DNA from: Planctomycetota bacterium
Lineage (GTDB): Bacteria > Planctomycetota > MHYJ01 > WSZJ01
Length of the DNA: 57,999 bases
Assembly: GCA_038060895.1 (NCBI GenBank)
Contig: JBBTCT010000021.1
Coordinates: 36,370-94,368, forward strand
Direction of reading: 5' to 3'
Shown here: positions 26,088 through 35,620 of the stretch, piece by piece
Position numbering within the stretch: position 1 is the stretch's first letter
How the letters are laid out: each line of letters begins with the position of its first letter
The notes under the pieces: generated by a model
Databases searched by the model: none
What the model was told of the DNA's origin: nothing
The model's input: only the letters and a program-made list of their open reading frames with translations
Translations under genes and position numbers: made by a program

Positions 26088-26972
26088 CTACTCCATCTCT
26101 TCCAGCGTCCTCGGCCAGTCCCCCTTGAGCAGCCTCGACAGCGACCGGTCCGCGAGGATCCGGCCGCCGGTCTGGCAGCGCGGACAGTAGTTCGTCTCGT
26201 TGTCGGCTTTCACGATCCGCTGAACGGGGGCGGCGCAGGCGGGGCAAGGTTTCCGGAAGCGGCCGTGGACGGCCATTTCGGGCCGGAACGCGGTGACACC
26301 CTCCGGGAAGTCTTCGCCGGACCCGGCGCGGAGGCGGTCGGTCCAGTCGCGGAGCGATTGACGCGCCGCGTCAAAAAGGCGCGCCGCCTCTTCATCGGTG
26401 AGCTTCGACGTCAGCGTGATCGGCGACAGCTTCGCCTTCCAGAGGATTTCGTCCGAGTACGCGTTCCCGATCCCTGCGAACGTCGCCGGGTCCGTCAGCG
26501 CTCGCTTGAGAGTCCGGTTATGGCGGCGAAGCGCCGCGACGAACGCTTCGCGCGTCGCGGTCAACGGCTCGACGCCGCCCGGGTCGTGCGCGGCCAGGGC
26601 CGCTTCGCCTCTCACGGCGTGAAGCGACGCGCGTTTCTTCGTTCCTGCCTCGGTGAGGATCAGCGTGCCTTCGGCGAAGTCGAACGCCGCCAAGCCGAGT
26701 TTGCCGGGCGGTCGCGCGCCAGCCGGTTTCCAGTGCAGCCGTCCGGCGATCATCAGGTGCAGGACGAGGAAAAGTTCGTCATCGAAGCAGAACACGATCC
26801 GTTTTCCAATCCGTCGGAAGCCGCGCACGGGCTTTCCACGGAAGGCGTCGAGAGGCGGCTCGACGGTGCGCAGGAGAAACATCGAGGGAAGCCGGATCCC
26901 GGCGAGCACGCGGCCGGTGCAGCGGCGGTCGAGGTGCTCGATGTAAATCTGCAGATCGGGGAGTTCCGGCAC
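26088..26972 (-). CDS. Fpg/Nei family DNA glycosylase
   Basis: N-terminal PELP, HLMIAG, H2TH GIGNAYSDEIL, zinc finger CPAC...CPRCQ. Confidence 0.93.
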   Translation of the reverse strand: MPELPDLQIYIEHLDRRCTGRVLAGIRLPSMFLLRTVEPPLDAFRGKPVRGFRRIGKRIVFCFDDELFLVLHLMIAGRLHWKPAGARPPGKLGLAAFDFAEGTLILTEAGTKKRASLHAVRGEAALAAHDPGGVEPLTATREAFVAALRRHNRTLKRALTDPATFAGIGNAYSDEILWKAKLSPITLTSKLTDEEAARLFDAARQSLRDWTDRLRAGSGEDFPEGVTAFRPEMAVHGRFRKPCPACAAPVQRIVKADNETNYCPRCQTGGRILADRSLSRLLKGDWPRTLEEME

Positions 26973-27020
26973 GGCGACAGTGTGGAGCCGGGGACAGGGA
27001 AATGCGAAAAGGAAAGTCGA

Positions 27021-27115
27021 GACGCTGAAAGGCGCTGAAACGGCACGCTGAAAAGCGCTGATTTGGCGGACGTTGGCAGCGCTTTTCAGCGGCCGTTTCA
27101 GCGCCTTTCAGCGTC
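27021..27115. repeat. Intergenic inverted repeat with CGCTGAAA units (39/40 match)
   Basis: 27021-27060 versus 27077-27115. Confidence 0.9.
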
Positions 27116-27137
27116 CCGGCTTTTGTCCTCTATCCAA

Positions 27138-27524
27138 CTACTTCAGCTTCGCCATTGCGTCGAGATAGACCTTTCCAGGCGTTCCCGACAGCGTCGGGTG
27201 CGCCGTGCCGGTGACGCGCTTGTGGAGATCCGCGACGTCGGCATTCGACTCGACCGGGAGCCACTTCTCGACGGTGCCGCGCTTGAGCTGCACCACGGGG
27301 CCTTTGCCTTTCGGCGAAGCGTCGTTGGGGATCACGGCGAACTGCCCGATGACCCACTCGTTGCCCGCGGAGTCCTTGATGGACTTTCCCTGGAGAGGCC
27401 GAAGCGCGGCCTGGCCGTCGCCGTCGGGGTAGGGGCCCGAATAGCCGGGCGGTTCCGGTTTCCGGGTGCAGCAGCACGCGGTGAGGGCGAACAGCAAGGG
27501 AAGGCAGGCGAGCCAGCGCTTCAT
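27138..27524 (-). CDS. Putative lipoprotein, last gene of the ECF/macroglobulin operon
   Basis: MKRWLACLPLLFALTAC lipobox followed by CC; ATGA overlap with the upstream stop. Confidence 0.8.
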   Translation of the reverse strand: MKRWLACLPLLFALTACCCTRKPEPPGYSGPYPDGDGQAALRPLQGKSIKDSAGNEWVIGQFAVIPNDASPKGKGPVVQLKRGTVEKWLPVESNADVADLHKRVTGTAHPTLSGTPGKVYLDAMAKLK

Positions 27525-30500
27525 TTCCTCTCCTTGACGACGATCCGGCGCGGACTGGACACGCCGTTGTTGTCGGGCGCATAGTATTCGTACACGCCGC
27601 TCGCCGGGGACTGGGCGACGATGGGGAAGCGCGGGCGGAGGTCGTAGGCGACGCGGATCGGGGCGCCGGGGGCGACCTTGCCGAAGTAAAGCGTGATCTG
27701 GCGGCCGGTGAGCGAGTACTTGTCTATCGCGCCGGATTCCTTCAGCCGCTCGAAAGCGGACGGGTCCGGCTCGAAACCGGGCGGGATGCCGAGGTCTGCG
27801 ATCACCATCGACGTCTCGCGGCCGCGAAGGGTCAGGCTCGCCGTCGCGTGAAGGACGCCGTCGAGGTCGATCTCCTGCTTGTCGTAGGCGACTTCGATGG
27901 AAAGGGGAGGGGCCTCGGGGCGAGGAGCGAGATGCCACGGGAGATAGAAGCGCCCCGCGACCTGGTACGACGCCGACAGCTCGCCGTCCGATTCCAGCTC
28001 GATCGTGTTCTCACCCTCCTCGACGGGGATCTCCGCCTGCTGGTACAGGTCAAACGTCTCCCCGTTGATCCCGCGGAACGCGCCGAGGATCTCCTTCCCA
28101 TTCACGCGCAGCTTCACGTGCACCGGTCGCTCCGGCTTTTTCGCCGCTCCGCCGTCTTCCAGCAACGCTTTGATCGCCAGAATCGTCGCCTGCGTCGAGC
28201 CCCAGTCGCCGTGCGGCTGCCGGTTCTTCGACAACCACGCCAGCGCTTCCGCCGCCCGCGGCGACCGCGTCCGCCCGCACGCCAGCGCCGCCAGCGCCGT
28301 CGCTTCGATCGCTGCCGTGTTGCCTCTCGCGCCGCAGAGCCCGTCCTGCGCCGTCCCCCAATGCGTCAGCGCCCCTTCGCGCACCGCCGATTTCTCGAGC
28401 GGAGCGACATCCGAAGCCCTTCCCAGCGCCAGCGCCACGAGTCCCTGCACGTACGGATCGGAAGCTTCCGCCGCGTGAGACGCGACCCAGGCCGTGCCTC
28501 GCTGGACTTCCGGGTCGTTGAGGCCGGCCTCGCGAAGCGCCCACACGACGTACGCCGTCATCGGAAGCCGCCCGTTGCCGAGCTGCCCCCACGTGTGCAT
28601 CCCGAGGTCGAGCGACCAGCCGCCGTCCTTGTCCTGCCGCGAATACAGCACCCGCTTCGCCCGAGCCACGACGTCCGGGTCCACGTCGCGCACCTTCGCC
28701 ATGTCCGTGAACAGGAGGATTCCGTACGCCGTCAGGATCGTCTTCGCCGGCGCCCGGCCGTACCAGTCGAACCCGCCGCCGCTCACTTCAAAGGTCAGCA
28801 GCCGCTGGTAGCCCGCGTTCAGCGCTTCGTCGAGCTTCATCTGCCATTCAGGGGTCAACTGACCCGTCTTCCGGAGGTAGGCCATCACGAGAACGTTCGG
28901 ATAGGCCACGCTCGAGGTCTGCTCGAATCAGCCATACGGCAGCCGCACGAGGCCTTCAAGGCCGCCGACGACTTCGGAGAAGCGGCTCGGGTAGAGGCGG
29001 ACCCAGGCGCGGGAAGCGCCGTCGACGGCGTCCGAGGGGATCGTGACTTTCGTGGAAGCGCGGTCGCGCAGGACGTCGTTGGCGGAGAGCGGCATCTCGC
29101 GGCCGTCCGGCACGACGTCGATCGCGCGGCGGATCGCGTCGGCAAACTCCGGCGACGTCGCGGTCACTTTCAGTTTGTGCCGTCCGAACTCGCGCGCCTT
29201 CACGTGGAAGTACACCGAGCGCACGTCGTTGGCGGCGATGGTCAGCGTCTTCTTCGCGTCGTCCTTGATCTCGAACCCGCTCTCGGCTTCGAACTCCAGC
29301 ACCACGCGCTGCTCCCGCTCGAGGTAGTTGTACACCGCGACCGGGATCCACACTTCGTCCCCCTGCGTCAGCGCCACCGGCAGGTCGATATCTGCAAAGA
29401 ATGGTTGGAACACCCGCAACGGCGCGTCCATCGCCCCCAGCCGCCCGCCCCGATCCACCGCCGACATCCCCATCCGCCACGTCGTGATCGAGTCCGCGCC
29501 GGGAAAGCGCAGCGTCGCGCGGCCCTCGTTGTCGGTGACGATCTCGGGGTTCCAGTAGAGGGTTTCGGGGAAGTATTCGCGGAGGCGGGGGGCGTTGGGT
29601 GTAGACGGCCCGACTTTGGACTCAGTCTTGAAGGCCACATCGACCACGTTCGGAGATGCGGCGCCACTCGCCGGCTTGGCGGATTCCCTCGCGGACAGGA
29701 CTCCGTCGAAACTGCGCCCCCTCGTGCTAGACAGGGAAGGCAGCAACAGGCCGGCGAAGATCACAATGAGGATGAGGCCCACCACGAGCGCCCCCAGCCA
29801 GGCATGTTCTTCCTTCGTGGTCTGGAGGACCGTCTGGATGACGACATAGATCAGGCCGCCCAGGATGGTCAGGACCAGCGTCAGCGCCCTGACCGCGTCG
29901 AGGGCGCCGTCCGAATCCGGCAAGAGCACCAGGAGCACGATCGTGCCGGCGAGCAGGGACAGCCAGATCCGTGTGTACTGCATTGCGAACCCGATCAACC
30001 TGAACACCCAAACAAGGACGATCAGTGCAGCGGTCCATGCCAGGACCGCCTGGGTGCCTGCCACCTCGCTTCGGCGCCACCGCGCGAACCGCTCGAGCTT
30101 GAGGTGCCATTCGTTGCTGGCGAACTGCTGTGCCGCGGGTTTTTCCGCGATCGCCACTCGCGCCGGTGACGGATCGTCGGATGCGAGCGCGCCCGCAGGC
30201 TTGAGCTGGAAACGCGGCTTGAGCAGCTCTTCCTGGATCGCGAAGTACGTCGCTTCGAGCCCCGGGCGCGCGTCGTTGAGCGCAAACACCGCTTCATCGA
30301 CCACCGACACGCTCAGCGCGGACGGCGCGGGCATCCCGTCCGGCCCGAACACCTGTACTTCCGCCGTCATTTCGTCCCCCGGCTTGAACGGCTCCGGGCG
30401 GATTGCGGGGCGGATCTCGAGGCCCTTGGCGGGCATGACGACGATCGGGCGCGAGTCGCGCCAGATGTGGCCGTCCTCGCGGACGCGGTAGACGGCGACG

Positions 30501-32182
30501 CGGGCGGAACCGCGCAGCTCGGTCGGCAGGTCGATCGCGATGTCGGCGCGGCCCTTCACGACGTCGATGGTCTTCGTGAGATACGTGAACGCGCCGCGCG
30601 TCAGGTCGAGGTAGACCGGGCCATCGGTGCGCGAGAGAACCGTGACTTGCATTGTCTGGCCGGTGCGGTACTGCGAGAAGTCGGTGCGCAGAAGGAAATC
30701 CTGCTCCGCGCGGCCGTCGCGGTCGAGGTCGGCGACCAGCCGGCCGCTTCGGCCGTCATCGTCGTGCGCGAGAAGTTCGAATCGCGGGCCGGGGATCGGG
30801 ACTTCGAGGACGCCGTTCTCGTCGGTCTGGCGCTCGCCTTGCCCCTTGAAGCGCACCCAGGCGCGTGCGGCGCTTCCGTCGGGGTAGGAGCAGACGATGT
30901 ACATCTTTTGGGCGACGCCGGGGACGTACTCGCCGCCTTCGGGGACGGCGACCAGGCGGAGCGGCGTGGCCGTGACAGGGAGGAGGACGGCCTTGCGCTC
31001 GACGTGGCCGGCCGTGTCGGTGACCGAAGCTTCGCACCGCACGAGCGCGCTGCCGCCTTCGAGCTCGGTGCCGTACAGCTTTTTCGGTATTTCCAGCATC
31101 AGCCGCGCGTGCCCTTTCTCGTCCGCGCGCATCACCGCAGTCCCCGCTTCCTTGAAGTCGTCTCCGACCCAGTGCGAGAGCGTCACGCGCACATCCGCGC
31201 CGGCGCAGGGCTTGCCGAAGAGGTAGTCGGCGTCGACGTCGGCGTACAGCGTGCGGCCGGGGGCGTAGAAGCGCTGGTCGGTCGCGAGGTCCACGCGAAA
31301 TTTCGGCAGAACGTAGCGCTTCACTTCGAAGACGCGCTCGCTCTCGACGCCGCCCGCGACGGCCTTGGCGCGCCACGGGCCGAGGAGAACTTCATCGGCG
31401 AGATCGAGGTCGAACGCGGCGATTCCGAACTCGGACGTCTTCAGCGTCTTGCGCTCGACCTTGTTGCCGTTGGCGTCCTCGATTTCGAGCGAGACCTCGC
31501 CCTTGAACGGCCTGAGCGCGACGTCGTCCATGGCGAGGATGCGGAAGTGGACCGTCTGCTCCGGCTGATAGATCGGCTTGTCCGTCGAGATGAGCACGCG
31601 CACCGGGCGCTCGATCGTGACCTTCTTCGTGATGCGGTCCTCGCCCATCGCCGAAATCACCGTGAGGATGAGCACCGCGTCGCGCGAGGCCGGTACCGGC
31701 AGCCGCACGTCGGCGCAGCCGTCCGCGCCGGAGACCGCTTCGACCTTCGCGCCGCCTTCGATCTCGGCGACGACTTTCGCGCCTGCGATCGCCGCCTGCG
31801 TCTGCCCGTTGCGCACGAGCACGCGCAGCGAACCAGTCGCGCCCTCGACCCACGTCCGGGCGCCGATCACCGAGACCTGCTGAACCTGCGGCTCCTGCTT
31901 CTCAATCCACGCGCGCCAGCCGCCGACGGCAAGAAGCGCGACCGCGGCCGCGGCGAGGAAGCCCCACTTGAACAGTCCGCCGCGCGCAGGGATCCGCACC
32001 GGCTTGCCGCCCGCCGCTTCGTCCTGGAGCCGTACCGCAGCCTGCGCGAGCAATCCATCCGCGCGCCGGAGCGTCTCCAGCTTCGCGCGGCACGCCTCGC
32101 AGCTGGCGAGATGCTGCTCGAGCTCCGGCGCCTTGCCATCGAGGTACCAGGAGAGCTTCGCTTCGCAGTCAACGCAGTTCAT
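27521..32182 (-). CDS. Zinc-finger anti-sigma / alpha-2-macroglobulin-family fusion with in-frame TGA at the thioester Cys (codon 1085), 1553 aa
   Basis: HLASCEAC zf-HC2 plus TM; TDKPIYQP and YVLPKF MG domains; VVDEAVFAL; LREYFPETLYW; DSITTW; LPYG-TGA-FEQTSS (TGA 28930-28928) in frame with ORF 27521-28909; GYQRLL; DLGIPPGF; VYEYYAP. Confidence 0.88.
28888..28927 (-). promoter_or_regulatory. Candidate SECIS element of the macroglobulin gene
   Basis: UGA UUCGAGCAGACCUC GAGCGU GGCCUAUCCGA ACGUUC: stem closes a loop starting GG at +21. An alternative UCGAG/CUCGA hairpin lies next to the UGA. Confidence 0.45.
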
Positions 32183-32202
32183 GGCGATTTCGTTCCTTCC
32201 TC

Positions 32203-32466
32203 TTAAGACCGGCGCGAACGGGCAAAGGCGTAAAACACGGTGAACACCAAGGCCAGGACCAGCAGGCACGGCACCGACCAGTTCTGGACCTCATCGGAGT
32301 TCGGGAACTCCCTCAGGAGTCGGCGTCCGGTTCGGGACACCGATGCGAAGAGGCCGCTCCGCGGCCCTCCACTGCGGGCTAACCCTCAGGTGTAATGCAC
32401 CGAAACGGGGACATGGATTGCCGTTCCCGCAGAACCGGCCGCGCGAGCGACCACAAGAGGCGTCAT
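32203..32466 (-). CDS. Small single-TM protein with in-frame TGA (codon 27), 87 aa, missed by the ORF track
   Basis: GGAAGGAG RBS and ATGA overlap; MTPLVV...VHYT-TGA-GLARSGG...SDEVQNWSVPCLLVLALVFTVFYAFARSRRS-TAA, ending just before the macroglobulin RBS; GGCCGC-GGA-GCGGCC hairpin at 32350-32369. Confidence 0.6.
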
Positions 32467-32720
32467 GATCGCGGCTCCTTCCACGCAACCTGGCCGGAGG
32501 GGCGCGGCTTGTGGAAGACCCACCAGGCCGCGAGCGAGAGCAGAAGCGCGATTCCCCCCAGGATCGCGACCTCTTCCGATCTCAGGCCGAAGTGTGAGCG
32601 TCCGCCGGGACAGCAGGGACGCAGCTGCGAAGTGCCGCACTTCACAGGCGCGGCCGTGTGCTTCACGAGCTTGCCGTCGACGATCCTGTCCTGGCACCAC
32701 GCCATCGGTTCACATCTCAT
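32463..32720 (-). CDS. Small Cys-rich single-TM protein
   Basis: ATGA overlaps at both ends; KCG and CC motifs; SEEV followed by a TM helix. Confidence 0.65.
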   Translation of the reverse strand: MRCEPMAWCQDRIVDGKLVKHTAAPVKCGTSQLRPCCPGGRSHFGLRSEEVAILGGIALLLSLAAWWVFHKPRPSGQVAWKEPRS

Positions 32721-33229
32721 GCGGGTTCTGCTCCCATTCTCTCGGTCACCATCTTCCGGACGCGGTGCAGCTTCTCGCCCACCGACGCCGCGGTCATGCC
32801 CAGGACTTCGCCGATCTCCGCGTAGCTCATCTGCTCCACGAATCTCAGCAGCACGAGCTGCCGGTAGTCCTCGCGCAGGCCGTCGACGATCCGCACGACC
32901 CGTTCGATCAGGTCGTCGGGCTTCTTTTCCGCCACCGGGGCCGCCACGTCCACCAGCTCCTCCGCTTTGTGCCGCTTCTCGCGCCGCAGCCAGTCGATGG
33001 CCGCGTTACGGGTCAGCGTGTACAGCCAGGTTTTCGCCTTCGACGGATCCCGCAGAGTCCCCAGCGCCTTCCACGCCCGCAGGAACGCTTCCTGCGTGAC
33101 GTCGTCGGCGGCGGACGGACTTCGGACCCAGGACAGGGCGAGGGCTCGCACCATCCGTTCGTGTGACTTCACGAAGGTGTCGAAATCCAGGGCCACGGTT
33201 CGGGTGGGAGCGCCTTGTTCCGGGTTCAA
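32717..33229 (-). CDS. ECF sigma-70 factor
   Basis: ADDVTQEAFLRAW, KTWLYTLTRN, region 4 LRFVEQMSYAEIGEVLG. Confidence 0.93.
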   Translation of the reverse strand: MNPEQGAPTRTVALDFDTFVKSHERMVRALALSWVRSPSAADDVTQEAFLRAWKALGTLRDPSKAKTWLYTLTRNAAIDWLRREKRHKAEELVDVAAPVAEKKPDDLIERVVRIVDGLREDYRQLVLLRFVEQMSYAEIGEVLGMTAASVGEKLHRVRKMVTERMGAEPA

Positions 33230-33471
33230 GAGTTAGGCGGGGCGGGAAGGGCCGCTATTAGAGGAAAATCCGAAAAATTATGGGGAAGGCGGGTTGGCCT
33301 CGGATCGGGCAGGGTCGAAGGTCGAGTGTTGGAGGTCTGCAGGCTCTCAATCCAGGCCCCTACCATTGTTCGCCCCACCCAGGCCCCGAATCACCCCGTG
33401 TCCGGATAGTTCGGGAAAGAGAATGTCCCGCCGGCGGGGACGGAAGTTCCACCCCCGCCGGCGCGCTGCTT

Positions 33472-34152
33472 CTACTTCTTCATGTCCTCTTCGCCCGAGG
33501 ACTCGATGTGGATCGTGAAACCGTTCTGCTTCGTGTACTTGTAGTCATACCCGTTGCCCTTGTACCAGTGCGTGGCGTAGCACAGGAAGAAGCCGTTGTT
33601 CTTCTGCGCCCCCCAGTACTTCACCTCTTTCAGCACCGACTGCTTCCCGTCCGTCATCGCAGGCTCCAGCGTCACCTCGCCCTTGTCGCCGCACTTCGCG
33701 TGCGCCGCGCCGCCGTCCTTCATCTCCCACGTGATCGCCGCCGTGTCCGTCTTCACGTCCTTCCACTTAACCGGATACACCTTCGTGATCAGGAACGACA
33801 GCGCTTCCTGCTGCTCCTTCGTCACCGTGGTGTCCCAGGTGATGACGCACCCGTCCATCTCGCCGTCGGCGAAGCTGCCGCCAAGGTTGCCGGAGATCCA
33901 GAACTTGCAGCCGTCGACCTTGACATCGCCGACGTAGCCGGAAGCGACCCTTACGGCGTTGTTGAACTCACAGTGGTGGCCGCCGGCGGGCTCGGTGTTG
34001 AAGTAACAGGTGCAGAACAACGGGCAGGAGCAGGCTTCGATGTAGTCCGCCTTGATTTCCCACTTCCGTTTCGCGTCCGCGCTGGTGGCGGGGGCAAAGA
34101 CGAGCAGGGCAGCTGCGGCGCAGGCGGCGGCGAACACGATACGCACTTTCAT
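33472..34152 (-). CDS. DUF1326-like Cys-rich protein with signal peptide
   Basis: W.I..DYIEACSCPLFCTC motif; AGGAG RBS before ATG34152. Confidence 0.8.
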   Translation of the reverse strand: MKVRIVFAAACAAAALLVFAPATSADAKRKWEIKADYIEACSCPLFCTCYFNTEPAGGHHCEFNNAVRVASGYVGDVKVDGCKFWISGNLGGSFADGEMDGCVITWDTTVTKEQQEALSFLITKVYPVKWKDVKTDTAAITWEMKDGGAAHAKCGDKGEVTLEPAMTDGKQSVLKEVKYWGAQKNNGFFLCYATHWYKGNGYDYKYTKQNGFTIHIESSGEEDMKK

Positions 34153-34408
34153 GGTCTCCTCCTTGAAGGGTTTTCCGTCACGTGTCTCGGGTCGTCGATT
34201 GGACTTCCCGATCCGGGTTCGGGGTGGACTATAGGTTTTCTCCGGGCCAGAACTCAACGCCTACCCGGAGGCGGGTCGTCGAGGACGCCGTTGCGTCCTC
34301 CGGACCGACCCGAGGCAGGAGGATGCGCTGGTTCAGGAGGAGTTGCCGCGGCTAGAATGGGCGTTCGTGAAGCGGCCGCTTCCCAGGACGATATGAAGGG
34401 CACTCTCG

Positions 34409-35620
34409 ATGCGAAATACGCGGATGCTGTGGATTCTCGGTCTTGCGGCGGGGGCAGCCATGACTCCGGCCCTCGCAGAGGACCCGCCCAGGGGCGCCGA
34501 GTTCACGGCTCCAGTGCGCCTGAAGGCCGCCGGTGAGTTCGTCCGGACCGAGGAGCCGGGCTACGCGGCGCCCTGCTGGGCCGACGCGGACGGCGACGGC
34601 AGGAAGGACCTGATCGTCGGCCAGTTCTCCGGGGGCAAAATGAAGGTCTATCGAAACCTCGGCGAAGGCAAGCTCGCGGAGGGGCGCTGGCTCGAGGCCG
34701 AGGGCAAGGTAGCCGAGGTGCCGGGGGTCTGGTGATGCACGAGCGCGACTCCACAGTTCGTGGATCTCAACGGTGACGGCAAGGTCGACATTCTTTCAGG
34801 CTCGTACTCGCGCGATGAAGGGGACATGGCGGGCCTGTTCCAGGTGTTGTGGGGAGTCGAGGGCGGGGGCTTCAAAGCGCCTGCGGTCCTCAACGGCACC
34901 GACGGCCAGCCCCTGATCATCGCGGACGACGACGACATTCCCAGGATCTGCACCCGGCCGACGGCGGTGGACCTCAACGGCGACGGCAAGCTGGACATCG
35001 TCTCGGGCAATTTCGCCGGCACGTTCGCGTTCTTCCCCGGCGAGGGCGAGGGCCGGTTCGCGCCGAAACACACGCTGCTGACCGGCGCCGACGGCGCTTC
35101 GCTCAACGTGGACGACCACAGCGATCCGTTCTTCGTCGACTGGGACGGCGACGGCGACCTCGACTTGCTCAGCGGGTCCGCTTCCGGCGGCGTGTCCCTG
35201 TTCGTCAATCTCGGCTCGAAGAAGGAAGCGAAGTTCGGCAAGCCGGTGGCACTGGTGCCGGCCGTCGAGAACGAGCCTTCCGGCGCCCGCATGGGCGATG
35301 AATGGCTGAAGGGGCCACAGTCGGATACCCGCGTCTGGGCCGACGACCTCAACGGCGACGGCAAGCTTGACCTCCTGATCGGAGACTCGGTCACGCTGGT
35401 GTACCCGGCGGCCGGGCTTGAAGTGGCGCAGGCTCGGGAGAAGCTCGCCGAGTGGTCGGCCAGAATGGAAAAGGCGGGAGCCGCGCTCCGCGCGGGCGGA
35501 GGGCCCACGGCAGAGGACAAGAAAAAGTACCAGGAGGAGTGGCAGAAGCTCCGGAAAGAGCGCGAGACGATCGTGCGCGAGGACTCGACCGGATTCGTCT
35601 GGGTGATGTACCGGAAGTAG
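34409..35620 (+). CDS. Secreted FG-GAP/VCBS repeat protein with in-frame TGA (codon 109, W-U-C), 403 aa
   Basis: ORFs 34409-34735 and 34760-35620 share a frame: VPGVW-TGA-CTSATPQFVDLNGDGKVD. DxxGDGxxDL repeats lie on both sides; hairpin TCCAC-AGTTC-GTGGA at 34750-34764. Confidence 0.82.

What the first reader, a model, noticed from the sequence alone, without database searches (positions are those of the whole stretch)
27138..33229. Five-gene ECF operon that may couple a macroglobulin trap to transcription
Seen: ECF sigma, small Cys-rich TM protein, small UGA-containing TM protein, anti-sigma/macroglobulin fusion and lipoprotein, linked by three ATGA overlaps and one 20-nt gap. The macroglobulin begins with a HxxxCxxC zinc-finger anti-sigma domain and a TM helix. 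Known: zf-HC2 domains sequester cognate ECFs, and macroglobulins change conformation and bind covalently after bait cleavage. Inference: an extracytoplasmic protease or attack sensor that releases the sigma factor, with two selenium-dependent steps. Termination at the UGA would give a trap lacking its reactive domain.
Basis: partly seen in the sequence, partly recalled or inferred. Interest (0 to 1): 0.88.

Follow-up and report, generated by a model that had tools for sequence, protein, structure and literature searches.

The report
Selenocysteine-armed macroglobulin fused to anti-sigma factor
An ECF sigma factor gene is followed by a membrane protein that joins a zinc-finger anti-sigma domain to an alpha-2-macroglobulin-type trap whose reactive thioester cysteine is encoded by UGA, most likely selenocysteine, a feature shared by about a hundred related genes in several phyla and not found in the papers searched.

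Summary
The ORFs, three ATGA overlaps and the 20-nt gap are as described. The important point was understated. The in-frame UGA of the macroglobulin (28928-28930) is the thioester cysteine codon itself (LPYG-U-FEQT; Cys homologues read GCFEQT).

- **Conservation of the UGA:** it is kept in 21 of 21 genes from the window and relatives. It also sits in 78 of 80 fetched loci from a pattern scan, in Planctomycetota, Chloroflexota and other phyla.
- **Support for selenocysteine:** hairpins with compensatory changes follow the UGA. The genome has selA, selB, selD and tRNA-Sec.
- **Sigma/anti-sigma link:** 12 of 13 fusion genes have an ECF sigma directly upstream, and a complex model supports binding.
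- **Bait region:** it holds four membrane helices between two disordered linkers.

Not supported:
- The five-gene unit is not conserved. The small Cys-rich ORF has weak counterparts in two relatives only.
- The small "UGA" ORF has no counterpart, and its part upstream of the UGA looks non-coding.
- The lipoprotein is confined to the genus.

That attack on the trap releases the sigma factor remains inference. Nine literature searches found no description.

The parts
32717..33229 (-). ECF sigma factor (170 aa, TTG start; ATG at the same place in a relative)
   Evidence: Pfam Sigma70_r2 1.9e-21 and Sigma70_r4_2 3.4e-13. NCBIfam TIGR02937 scores 104 bits against a cut-off of 42.9. Orthologues lie directly upstream of the fusion gene in relatives.
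33258..33262 (-). TCTAA core of a conserved T-rich motif about 30-40 nt upstream of the sigma start; candidate promoter element
   Evidence: TCTAA (CTAA in L035 and L042), preceded by a T-rich stretch, is seen in the upstream sequences of the window and 8 relatives printed. This was read by eye and was not tested statistically.
32463..32720 (-). Small Cys-rich single-pass membrane ORF (85 aa); possibly a real but fast-evolving gene
   Evidence: GC3 is 0.80. ORFs of 98 and 82 aa occupy the same slot in L032 and L035, at 24-29% identity with a shared C-terminal [VI][AS]W[KQ][EN]. It is absent where sigma and fusion gene abut. No Pfam or NCBIfam hit.
32203..32466 (-). Second small reading frame with in-frame TGA (32386-32388); most likely non-coding upstream of the TGA, with a possible 45-aa ORF from GTG 32340
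   Evidence: No counterpart in any relative. GC3 is 0.59 upstream of the TGA and 0.79 downstream. The hairpin after the TGA is not significant on its own, z = -1.23.
31985..32182 (-). Cytoplasmic zinc-binding anti-sigma domain (residues 1-66 from ATG 32182)
   Evidence: C3, H24, C28 and C31 are invariant in 11 of 11 sequences. Pfam zf-HC2 scores 17.3 bits, below the cut-off of 22.2. The complex model with the sigma scores 0.82 against 0.35 for the best control.
31913..31981 (-). First transmembrane helix
   Evidence: Hydropathy scan.
30278..31597 (-). Macroglobulin domains MG2, MG3 ... A2M_BRD (extracytoplasmic)
   Evidence: Pfam MG2 1e-21, MG3 1.4e-06 and A2M_BRD 2.7e-12. The AF2 model of residues 520-1110 has beta domains at pLDDT around 90.
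29606..30220 (-). Bait-region replacement: disordered linker (30113-30220), four membrane helices (29744-30109), disordered linker (29606-29743)
   Evidence: Hydropathy scan. AF2 gives helices at 721-842 flanked by stretches with pLDDT below 50 at 684-719 and 843-888. The alignment to CD109 and human A2M resumes just after their bait regions at query 889-891. Even-numbered TM inserts also occur in homologues.
29294..29563 (-). A2M (MG7) domain
   Evidence: Pfam PF00207 9.9e-19.
28928..28930 (-). UGA at the thioester cysteine position: predicted selenocysteine (residue 1085 from ATG)
   Evidence: LPYG-U-FEQT. UGA is at the same column in 21 of 21 genes and in 78 of 80 pattern loci. 117 of 120 full-length database homologues read GCFEQ. 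CD109's thioester Cys aligns here.
28877..28909 (-). SECIS-like hairpin, 22-54 nt after the U of UGA
   Evidence: RNAalifold on 14 sequences gives 12 pairs, 91% of cells paired and 4 pairs with compensatory changes. 0 of 500 shuffles reach the observed pairing or covariation score.
28160..28975 (-). Thioester domain (TED), spans the UGA
   Evidence: Pfam TED_complement 1.4e-37 over residues 1099-1370.
27563..27817 (-). Receptor-binding (MG8-like) domain
   Evidence: Pfam A2M_recep 8.6e-13.
27138..27524 (-). Small lipoprotein of unknown function, ATGA-coupled to the fusion gene
   Evidence: tblastn finds it downstream in 4 same-genus loci only. GC3 is 0.87. No Pfam or NCBIfam hit. Atlas hits are below the useful range.
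27013..27123 (.). Compound palindrome just after the last gene; possible terminator or REP-like element
   Evidence: 32-nt arms 94% complementary, plus nested arms. Partial copies lie on two other contigs.

Best explanation
The core of the locus is two genes, possibly three, not five.

**What it is.** An ECF sigma factor is held at the membrane by the N-terminal zinc-finger anti-sigma domain of a 1553-aa membrane protein. The rest of that protein is an alpha-2-macroglobulin/CD109-type thioester trap on the outer face of the cytoplasmic membrane. Two features set it apart:
1. The reactive cysteine of the G-C-x-E-Q motif is encoded by UGA and read as selenocysteine. The internal ester with the glutamine side chain would then be a selenoester. 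Selenoesters are expected from general chemistry (recalled, not tested here) to form readily and to acylate nucleophiles faster than thioesters.
2. The bait region is a loop of four membrane helices bracketed by two disordered linkers. The trap is therefore stitched to the membrane at its trigger.

**Proposed working (inferred).** A foreign protease, or another agent that cuts or disturbs the linker-helix-linker segment, triggers the usual macroglobulin rearrangement. The selenoester captures the attacker covalently. The cut or rearranged N-terminal fragment (anti-sigma domain, TM1, MG1-6) becomes a substrate for regulated proteolysis. The sigma factor is freed and switches on its regulon, probably including this operon.

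**With little selenium.** Termination at the UGA would give an anti-sigma protein without TED.

**Shown and not shown.**
- Shown: the domain make-up, the UGA position and its conservation, the hairpins, the Sec machinery, and the sigma adjacency.
- Supported by a model only: sigma binding.
- Inferred: selenoester formation, the trigger, and sigma release.
For: **UGA is the thioester Cys codon**
- Searches place it there.
- It is kept in 21 of 21 genes from the window plus 20 loci of relatives.
- In one search, the 29 best of 61 matched places in 41 genomes each carry exactly one TGA, down to 35% identity. Two of the 32 weaker places do.
- A scan of species genomes for G-UGA-F-E-Q-N15-Y-P-N gave 108 stretches. 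My rough estimate of chance matches is about 2. Of the 80 fetched, 78 lie in the ..P-x-G-U-FEQ.. macroglobulin context and 2 are chance.
- 117 of 120 full-length database homologues have GCFEQ.

**Translation continues past the UGA**
- Ser at +6 is kept in 79 of 80 unique sequences using both TCN and AGY codons. That position was not fixed by the search pattern.

**Hairpins after the UGA**
- Window clade: 12 pairs, 91% paired, 4 with compensatory changes, and 0 of 500 shuffles as good.
- Another clade pairs CCGUGACC/GGUCGCGG or CCAGGGCG/CGCCCUGG at the same place.
- UACGUC-N3-GACGUA, starting 11 nt after the UGA, is in 38 of 82 unique UGA forms and 0 of 20 Cys forms.

**Sec machinery**
- selB, selA, selD (itself with a TGA) and tRNA-Sec are all over cut-off in the genome.
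- All 18 relatives' genomes with a UGA form have selA. None of the 5 genomes without a selA match over cut-off has one.

**Anti-sigma link**
- C3, H24, C28 and C31 are invariant.
- 12 of 13 C..HxxxCxxC-bearing genes have an ECF sigma directly upstream on the same strand. The 13th is cut by its locus end.
- Complex model score 0.82, best of 3 controls 0.35. That mark was reached by 116 of 157 solved complexes and 2 of 215 mismatched pairs. The runs agree in at least 97% of contacts and the partner's pLDDT is at least 88. Contacts fall on sigma residues 16-53 and 107-166. My own alignments were used, and this is a textbook type of pair, so the pass may reflect likeness to solved complexes.

**Trap architecture**
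- Pfam finds MG2, MG3, A2M_BRD, A2M, TED_complement and A2M_recep.
- Best solved relatives by sequence are CD109 at 3e-61 and human A2M at 2e-60. Foldseek gives CD109 at 1e-21.

**Membrane-threaded bait**
-.
Against: - There are no expression, proteomic or selenium-labelling data. The genome is a draft, 86.5% complete.
- The hairpin of the single window sequence is not significant alone: z = -0.99, and 32 of 200 shuffles fold as well.
- Raw folding energies of UGA and Cys forms do not differ (Mann-Whitney p = 0.44). Only composition-corrected z-scores do (-1.24 against -0.39, p = 0.005), and the sequences are kin, so the test overstates.
- No formal bacterial SECIS model was available, and Rfam gave no hit.
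- The window's zf-HC2 Pfam score is below the cut-off.
- selA is present in 36 of 41 relatives, so its co-occurrence with UGA forms says little.
- F, E, Q, Y, P and N after the UGA were fixed by the pattern in the 80 named loci, so their conservation there is by construction.
- Nothing tested here shows that the ester forms with selenium, that a protease is the trigger, or that the sigma is released.
- Most UGA-type macroglobulins (64 of 77) lack the anti-sigma domain. Selenium use and sigma coupling are therefore separable traits.
Confidence: 0.6

Rival explanations
1. The macroglobulin part is a covalent trap or shield in its own right. The sigma factor is released by a different signal acting on the zinc-finger anti-sigma domain itself, for example thiol oxidation as in redox-sensing ZAS proteins. 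The fusion merely co-localises two functions.
For: All four putative zinc ligands are invariant. 64 of 77 UGA-type macroglobulins work without any anti-sigma domain. So the trap does not need the signalling part.
Against: The fusion and its sigma neighbour are kept together across families of the class, in both Sec and Cys forms. That is hard to explain if the extracytoplasmic 1400 residues gave no input. Membrane-spanning anti-sigma factors as a rule sense outside (general knowledge, recalled).
Confidence: 0.15
2. The ester is used for covalent attachment, not for trapping proteases. It would attach to the cell's own envelope or to another cell or surface, as complement C3/TEPs and Gram-positive thioester adhesins do. 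The sigma factor would then report attachment.
For: The closest solved relatives include C3, TEP1 and CD109, which tag surfaces. The canonical soluble bait loop is replaced by membrane helices. So a classical bait-and-trap cycle is not assured.
Against: Disordered linkers of about 36 and 46 residues still flank the helices where the bait lies. The A2M_BRD and receptor-binding domains are kept. No target is known.
Confidence: 0.15
3. The UGA is a real stop. The gene is split or decaying, giving an anti-sigma protein without TED, with a separate or silent downstream ORF.
For: Under table 11 the frame stops at 28928-28930, and a GTG lies 7 codons downstream. 48 of 80 unique sequences have a start-like codon within 12 codons after the UGA.
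Against: - The stop sits on the one codon that is Cys in 117 of 120 homologues.
- It is conserved in-frame in about 100 genes from several phyla.
- The codons between the UGA and any start are under protein-level constraint.
- 32 of 80 sequences have no start-like codon nearby.
- The Sec machinery is present.
Confidence: 0.03
4. One reading: a five-gene operon in which both the small membrane protein and the macroglobulin need selenocysteine.
For: The three ATGA overlaps and the 20-nt gap are real. A GC-rich hairpin lies about 20 nt after the small ORF's TGA.
Against: - No homologue of either small ORF was found by tblastn in 20 loci.
- The 534-nt spacer (32183-32716) is unique to this genome.
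- GC3 upstream of the small ORF's TGA is 0.59.
- Sigma and fusion gene abut in three same-genus relatives.
Confidence: 0.05

Closest known systems
Eukaryote-type thioester proteins: CD109, human alpha-2-macroglobulin, A2ML1, insect TEP1, complement C3/C4
   Same: The domain order is the same (MG2, MG3, bait-region domain, A2M/MG7, TED, receptor-binding domain), and so is the G-C-x-E-Q thioester motif position. They are the best solved matches by sequence (CD109 3.2e-61, A2M 1.8e-60) and by fold.
   Different: UGA (Sec) replaces the Cys codon. An N-terminal cytoplasmic anti-sigma domain and a TM helix are added. Four membrane helices sit in the bait region. The host is bacterial.
Bacterial alpha-2-macroglobulins (E. 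coli ECAM/YfhM, Salmonella SaA2M)
   Same: Both are membrane-tethered periplasmic macroglobulins with a thioester and a bait. The fold is matched at E of about 1e-16 (5a42, 4u48).
   Different: Those are lipoproteins with Cys, paired with a penicillin-binding protein (recalled, not tested here). They have no sigma/anti-sigma link and no TM insert. The Pfam bacterial MG families score weakly or not at all here (bMG5 scores 21.4, below its cut-off).
ZAS-type anti-sigma factors (zf-HC2: RsrA, ChrR, RslA, RsiW)
   Same: The H-x3-C-x2-C motif plus an upstream Cys is present. The cognate ECF sigma gene lies directly upstream. The model places the domain between sigma regions 2 and 4.
   Different: The sensor part is a 1400-residue thioester trap. 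The Pfam score of the window's copy is below the cut-off.
Anti-sigma factors that act as receptors for a hostile enzyme (RsiV-sigmaV with lysozyme; recalled)
   Same: The proposed logic is the same: the anti-sigma ectodomain meets an attacking enzyme directly, and is then removed by regulated proteolysis.
   Different: Here the enzyme would be captured covalently and would itself make the first cut. This is untested.
Bacterial selenoproteins with a coding-region SECIS hairpin (e.g. formate dehydrogenase FdhF)
   Same: An in-frame UGA aligns with Cys in homologues, a hairpin begins 11-22 nt downstream, and selABCD are present.
   Different: Known bacterial selenoproteins are nearly all redox enzymes (abstracts of PMC13188914 and PMC9312934, seen in the listing). 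Here Sec sits at an acyl-ester site of a non-enzymatic trap.

Membership tests
Alpha-2-macroglobulin / thioester-containing protein superfamily | Series of MG domains, with A2M (MG7) and the C-terminal receptor-binding domain | tested here: met
   Pfam MG2 77.5 bits, MG3 28.9, A2M_BRD 47.6, A2M 67.4 and A2M_recep 49.2, all over their cut-offs. Foldseek finds CD109 at 1e-21.
Alpha-2-macroglobulin / thioester-containing protein superfamily | TED with the C-x-E-Q thioester motif | tested here: inconclusive
   TED_complement scores 129.9 bits. The motif is G-U-F-E-Q, so E and Q are kept and the Cys codon is UGA. Whether an ester forms with selenium cannot be told from sequence.
Alpha-2-macroglobulin / thioester-containing protein superfamily | Exposed, protease-sensitive bait region between the bait-region domain and MG7 | tested here: inconclusive
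   The position is occupied by linker, four TM helices, linker. The linkers have pLDDT below 50. Cleavage was not tested.
ZAS (zf-HC2) anti-sigma factors | H-x3-C-x2-C zinc motif in an N-terminal cytoplasmic domain followed by a TM helix | tested here: met
   C3, H24, C28 and C31 are invariant in 11 of 11 sequences. TM helix found. 7 of the 120 listed homologues carry PF13490.
ZAS (zf-HC2) anti-sigma factors | Pfam PF13490 over its gathering score | tested here: not met
   17.3 bits against a cut-off of 22.2 for the window's protein.
ZAS (zf-HC2) anti-sigma factors | Cognate ECF sigma gene adjacent and bound by the domain | tested here: met
   Adjacency in 12 of 13 genes and in 10 of 20 relatives' loci. 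Binding is supported only by a model: 0.82 against a best control of 0.35, a mark reached by 116 of 157 solved and 2 of 215 mismatched pairs.
Bacterial selenoproteins | In-frame UGA aligned with Cys in homologues and conserved among orthologues | tested here: met
Bacterial selenoproteins | SECIS hairpin shortly downstream of the UGA | tested here: met
   Conserved hairpins with compensatory changes. UACGUC-N3-GACGUA is in 38 of 82 UGA forms and 0 of 20 Cys forms. This is in silico only, without a formal SECIS model.
Bacterial selenoproteins | selA, selB, selD and tRNA-Sec in the genome | tested here: met
   All four are over cut-off.
Bacterial selenoproteins | Selenium shown in the protein | not testable with these tools
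   Needs 75Se labelling or mass spectrometry.
Five-gene operon as proposed | All five genes kept together in relatives | tested here: not met
   The small ORFs are absent from all 20 loci by tblastn. The lipoprotein is in 4 same-genus loci only.

The most novel reading that the evidence does not exclude
Nature makes a protein selenoester. In a widespread family of bacterial macroglobulin/complement-type traps, selenocysteine replaces the thioester cysteine and forms a Sec-Gln selenolactone warhead. That would be a non-redox, acyl-transfer use of selenium. In Planctomycetota this warhead is built into an anti-sigma factor whose bait is threaded through the membrane. Covalent capture of an attacker would then be wired directly to transcription.
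Probability: 0.5. Interest if true: 0.92.

Novelty: new variant of a known kind. Interest (0 to 1): 0.85.

Why it matters
Three points matter.

1. **A new kind of selenoprotein.** It would add a large, multi-phylum family to the bacterial selenoproteome. Gene callers split these genes in two at the UGA. The selenium would sit at an ester-forming site and not a redox site. That raises a directly testable chemical question: does a selenoester form, and is it a faster warhead than the thioester of complement and alpha-2-macroglobulin?

2. **A new sensor logic.** The fusion to a ZAS anti-sigma domain, always next to an ECF sigma, suggests a sensor in which the attacking enzyme is both ligand and first protease. 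None of the searched papers describes such an ECF input.

3. **A membrane-threaded bait.** The bait region (2, 4 or 6 helices in different members) is an unexplained structural variation on a well-studied fold.

There is also a practical consequence. Annotation pipelines should join these split ORFs.

Tried and rejected
- **Single-sequence folds.** Folding after either UGA gave z = -0.99 and -1.23, not significant. Only the comparative analysis was informative.
- **Rfam.** A permissive scan of 27000-33400 found no SECIS or riboswitch. It gave only sub-threshold miRNA-like matches on the palindrome at 27016-27120.
- **Promoter and terminator scan.** One sigma-70-like site on the wrong strand, and terminator-like sites no more frequent than in shuffles.
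- **selA co-occurrence.** It is consistent but weakly informative, because 36 of 41 relatives have selA.
- **Raw MFE comparison.** UGA and Cys forms show no difference, p = 0.44.
- **Lipoprotein.** No family in Pfam or NCBIfam. ESM Atlas hits score 0.79 or less and TM is below 0.5, so nothing usable.
- **Spacer 32183-32716.** No repeat copy in the genome and no DNA similarity in relatives beyond the coding start of the fusion gene. A mobile-element origin was not supported.
- **Sec/Cys tree.** The tree (80 UGA and 120 Cys forms) gave about 9 state changes by parsimony on a midpoint root. The Cys set was chosen by likeness to the window, so I draw no direction of change from it.
- **Literature.** Nine searches and term look-ups in the main text of two selenoproteome papers (PMC13188914; PMC12013277) found no macroglobulin selenoprotein and no anti-sigma/macroglobulin fusion. 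Their supplementary tables were not read and could list such a family.

Full report
**What is at the coordinates.** On the minus strand the ORF list and the sequence show the following:
- An ECF sigma gene at 32717-33229.
- An 85-codon Cys-rich ORF at 32463-32720.
- An 87-codon frame at 32203-32466 interrupted by TGA at 32386-32388.
- A long macroglobulin gene from ATG 32182 to the stop at 27521-27523, with one in-frame TGA at 28928-28930.
- A 128-codon lipoprotein-like ORF at 27138-27524.

- Pfam calls the sigma (Sigma70_r2 76 bits, r4_2 49.5 bits).
- In the long protein, Pfam finds MG2, MG3, A2M_BRD, A2M, TED_complement (129.9 bits) and A2M_recep.
- zf-HC2 scores 17.3 bits, under its cut-off of 22.2.
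- NCBIfam adds nothing specific.

**The UGA is the thioester cysteine.** Read through, the long frame gives ...GLVRLPYG-U-FEQTSSVAYPNV....
- In CD109, the best solved relative (3.2e-61), the aligned residues are ...LIRMPYG-C-GEQ..., which is the thioester site.
- Among the 120 best full-length database homologues, 117 read GCFEQ. In the other three my regular expression hit elsewhere, and I did not look further.
- The nearest full-length (Cys) homologue is only 52% identical. That fits the closer relatives being split in two by gene callers.

**Conservation of the UGA.**
- A six-frame search of 41 genomes (the window's own and 40 relatives) with 300 residues around the site gave 61 places. The 29 best (E of 1.6e-53 or lower, down to 35% identity, several families of the class) each hold exactly one TGA. 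Two of the 32 weaker places do.
- I fetched 20 of these places. With the window, 21 of 21 have UGA at the Cys column: P-[YHG]-G-U-F-E-Q-[TS].
- A scan of one genome per species for GGN-TGA-TTY-GAR-CAR-N15-TAY-CCN-AAY found 108 stretches. I estimate about 2 by chance from the pattern's information content.
- Of the 80 whose DNA was fetched, 78 sit in the ..P-x-G-U-FEQ.. context of long macroglobulin-like frames. The 2 others (L091, L109) are chance.
- Their titles name Planctomycetota (including Gemmatales and a Kuenenia MAG), Chloroflexota (Anaerolineae, Caldilineae, Thermoflexales), Deltaproteobacteria/Myxococcales, Eisenbacteria, Abditibacteriales, Vulcanimicrobiota and an acidobacterial MAG.
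- The window's genome holds a second copy of another subtype (L051).

**Is it selenocysteine?**
- *Machinery.* The genome has selB (310.7 bits), selA (541 bits), selD (364 bits, itself with one TGA) and tRNA-Sec (71.7 bits), all over cut-off.
- *Co-occurrence.* All 18 genomes with a UGA form have selA over cut-off. None of the 5 genomes without one has a UGA form. As 36 of 41 genomes have selA, this says little.
- *Translation after the UGA.* Position +6 is Ser in 79 of 80 unique sequences, encoded by both TCN and AGY. Positions +4, +5, +7 and +8 are also conserved though not fixed by the pattern. F, E, Q, Y, P and N were fixed by the pattern in the named loci. They count only for the 21 genes found by protein search.
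- *Hairpin in the window's clade.* In 14 sequences a hairpin 22-54 nt after the UGA is 91% paired. Four pairs have changes on both sides, for example GUGGCC/GGCCUAC against GUGACC/GGUUAC against GUGACU/AGUUAC. None of 500 shuffles reaches the observed pairing or covariation, and the slid controls drop to 31-54%.
- *Hairpins in other clades.* Another Planctomycetota clade pairs CCGUGACC/GGUCGCGG or CCAGGGCG/CGCCCUGG at the same place. The Chloroflexota genes have UACGUC-N3-GACGUA beginning 11 nt after the UGA. It is present in 38 of 82 unique UGA forms and in none of 20 Cys-type genes from relatives.
- *Weaker results.* The window's hairpin alone is not significant. Raw folding energies of UGA and Cys forms do not differ (p = 0.44). 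Only z-scores do (p = 0.005, and the sequences are kin). Rfam has no hit.
- *Sec/Cys switches.* UGA and Cys forms interleave on a tree of the TED region, with about 9 changes. This is usual for Sec/Cys pairs.

I put selenocysteine insertion at about 0.9.

**The sigma/anti-sigma pair.**
- The N-terminus has C3, H24, C28 and C31 invariant in 11 of 11 sequences, followed by a TM helix.
- tblastn found the sigma directly upstream of the fusion gene in 10 of the 20 relatives' loci. The other 10 are macroglobulins with signal-peptide or plain TM starts, or cut contigs.
- Among 77 long UGA-type genes of named records, 13 have C..HxxxCxxC. Of these, 12 have an ECF sigma directly upstream on the same strand, and the 13th is cut at the locus end. 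All 13 are labelled Planctomycetota or a subgroup of it (Planctomycetia, Planctomycetales).
- Cys-type fusions exist too: 7 of the 120 listed homologues carry PF13490, and sources call them 'zf-HC2 domain-containing protein' or 'anti-sigma factor RsiW'.
- A complex model of the sigma with residues 1-66 scored 0.82 against a best control of 0.35. That mark was reached by 116 of 157 solved complexes and 2 of 215 mismatched pairs. The runs agree in at least 97% of contacts and the partner's pLDDT is at least 88.
- The domain touches sigma residues 16-53 and 107-166, that is regions 2 and 4.
- This is a well-known kind of pair and my own alignments were used. The pass shows likeness to solved complexes, not proof that this copy binds.

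**The bait region runs through the membrane.**
- Between A2M_BRD (residues 527-664, GTG-start numbering) and the conserved R-E-Y-F-P-E-T-L-Y-W that follows the bait in CD109 and A2M (query 889-899) lie four hydrophobic helices.
- An AlphaFold model of residues 520-1110 (63-row alignment, mean pLDDT 76.7) gives confident beta domains. It then gives a disordered stretch at 684-719, helices at 721-842, a disordered stretch at 843-888, and MG7.
- The model matches CD109, A2M and complement structures.
- Relatives have 2, 4 or about 6 helices there. The Chloroflexota forms and the Cys-type fusions have them too. An even number keeps both flanks outside.
- No Pfam family covers the insert.
- I read the two linkers as the likely bait. 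This was not tested.

**The other three ORFs.**
- Neither small ORF has a tblastn match in the 20 loci. The spacer 32183-32716 is unique in the genome and in relatives.
- Five same-genus loci hold both the sigma and the start of the fusion gene (L032, L033, L035, L036, L037). In three of them (L033, L036, L037) the two genes abut.
- In L032 and L035 a 98- and an 82-codon ORF with one TM helix fill the slot. Each starts over the sigma's stop and ends just before the fusion gene. They are 24-29% identical to the window's 85-aa ORF and share a [VI][AS]W[KQ][EN] tail. With GC3 of 0.80, the first small ORF may be a real, fast-evolving accessory gene.
- The second has no counterpart. Its 27 codons before the TGA have GC3 of 0.59, against 0.79 after it. 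A GTG at 32340 would give a 45-aa ORF without any UGA. I see no support for a second selenocysteine.
- The lipoprotein is found downstream only in four same-genus loci and has no recognisable family.
- A compound palindrome at 27013-27123 follows it.

**How it most likely works.**
- *Shown:* the architecture, the recoded site, the pairing with a sigma.
- *Model-supported:* sigma binding.
- *Inferred:* the resting protein holds the sigma at the membrane, and the ectodomain carries a buried Sec-Gln ester. A protease that cuts a linker springs the trap. The ester acylates the attacker. The severed N-terminal fragment is then cleared by regulated proteolysis, and the sigma is freed.

Selenium would make the ester easier to form and faster to react. 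This rests on general selenoester chemistry, which I recall and did not test. The abstract of PMC10096412 in the listing states only that selenium is more nucleophilic than sulfur.

Rivals are that the sigma answers a redox signal at the zinc finger, that the ester serves attachment and not trapping, or that the UGA is a stop. The last is very unlikely.

**Novelty.** Nine full-text searches found no paper linking selenocysteine with macroglobulins or thioester proteins in bacteria, and none linking anti-sigma factors with macroglobulins.
- A 2026 review of the prokaryotic selenoproteome (PMC13188914) has no occurrence of 'macroglobulin', 'MG2' or 'thioester' in its main text.
- Neither has the deep-Sep paper (PMC12013277).
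- I saw only passages and listings, and no supplements.
- Subscription journals are not in the library, so 'not in print' holds only for what was searched.

**Verdict.** The conserved unit is a sigma plus a Sec-bearing anti-sigma/macroglobulin fusion, not five genes. Only one selenium-dependent step is supported. That step, at the thioester site of a widespread family, is the most interesting part.

Noticed in passing
window 34409-35620 (+): Two same-frame ORFs are joined by TGA at 34733-34735. Together they give a 403-aa secreted FG-GAP-repeat protein with a ...GVW-U-C-TS... dyad. All 8 matches in 21 genomes (window's own plus 20 relatives) carry exactly one in-frame TGA. I did not check that it is the same column. 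This is a second likely selenoprotein in the window.
   Followed up: partly
G000:C12, locus L051 1095-6869 (+): A second UGA-type macroglobulin in the same genome (1925 aa, PHG-U-FEQS). It has a lipoprotein-like start and no anti-sigma domain. A long non-membrane insert sits where the bait lies.
   Followed up: partly
G000:C2:48628-49548 (-), locus L010: The selD match has one in-frame TGA, so selenophosphate synthetase is probably itself a selenoprotein here.
   Followed up: no
window 27013-27123: A compound palindrome built of GCGCTGAAA(A/G)GCG-like units lies between the lipoprotein gene and the fpg-like gene. Its 32-nt arms are 94% complementary. Partial copies lie on contigs C7 and C20, and the core motif occurs 16 times in the genome. 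It may be a terminator or a REP-like element.
   Followed up: partly
window 33258-33275 and upstream regions of L032, L033, L035, L036, L037, L039, L042, L043: A T-rich stretch followed by TCTAA (CTAA in L035 and L042) is conserved upstream of the sigma genes. It is a candidate autoregulated promoter element. It was read by eye only.
   Followed up: no
L043 2823-3122 (+): This relative's fusion protein starts with two tandem zinc-finger anti-sigma modules (H-x3-C-x2-C twice, 55 codons apart) before the TM helix.
   Followed up: no
proteins P0009, P0015, P0016, P0019, P0020, P0027, P0055, P0057, P0058, P0110, P0116: Some Cys-type homologues carry a type II secretion pseudopilin (PF08334, GspG) domain by precomputed Pfam. 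This suggests macroglobulins fused to a pilin-like domain.
   Followed up: no
window 33472-34257 (-) and 26088-26972 (-): The flanking genes are a DUF1326 protein with a signal-like start and a formamidopyrimidine-DNA glycosylase. Neither has an evident link to the locus.
   Followed up: no
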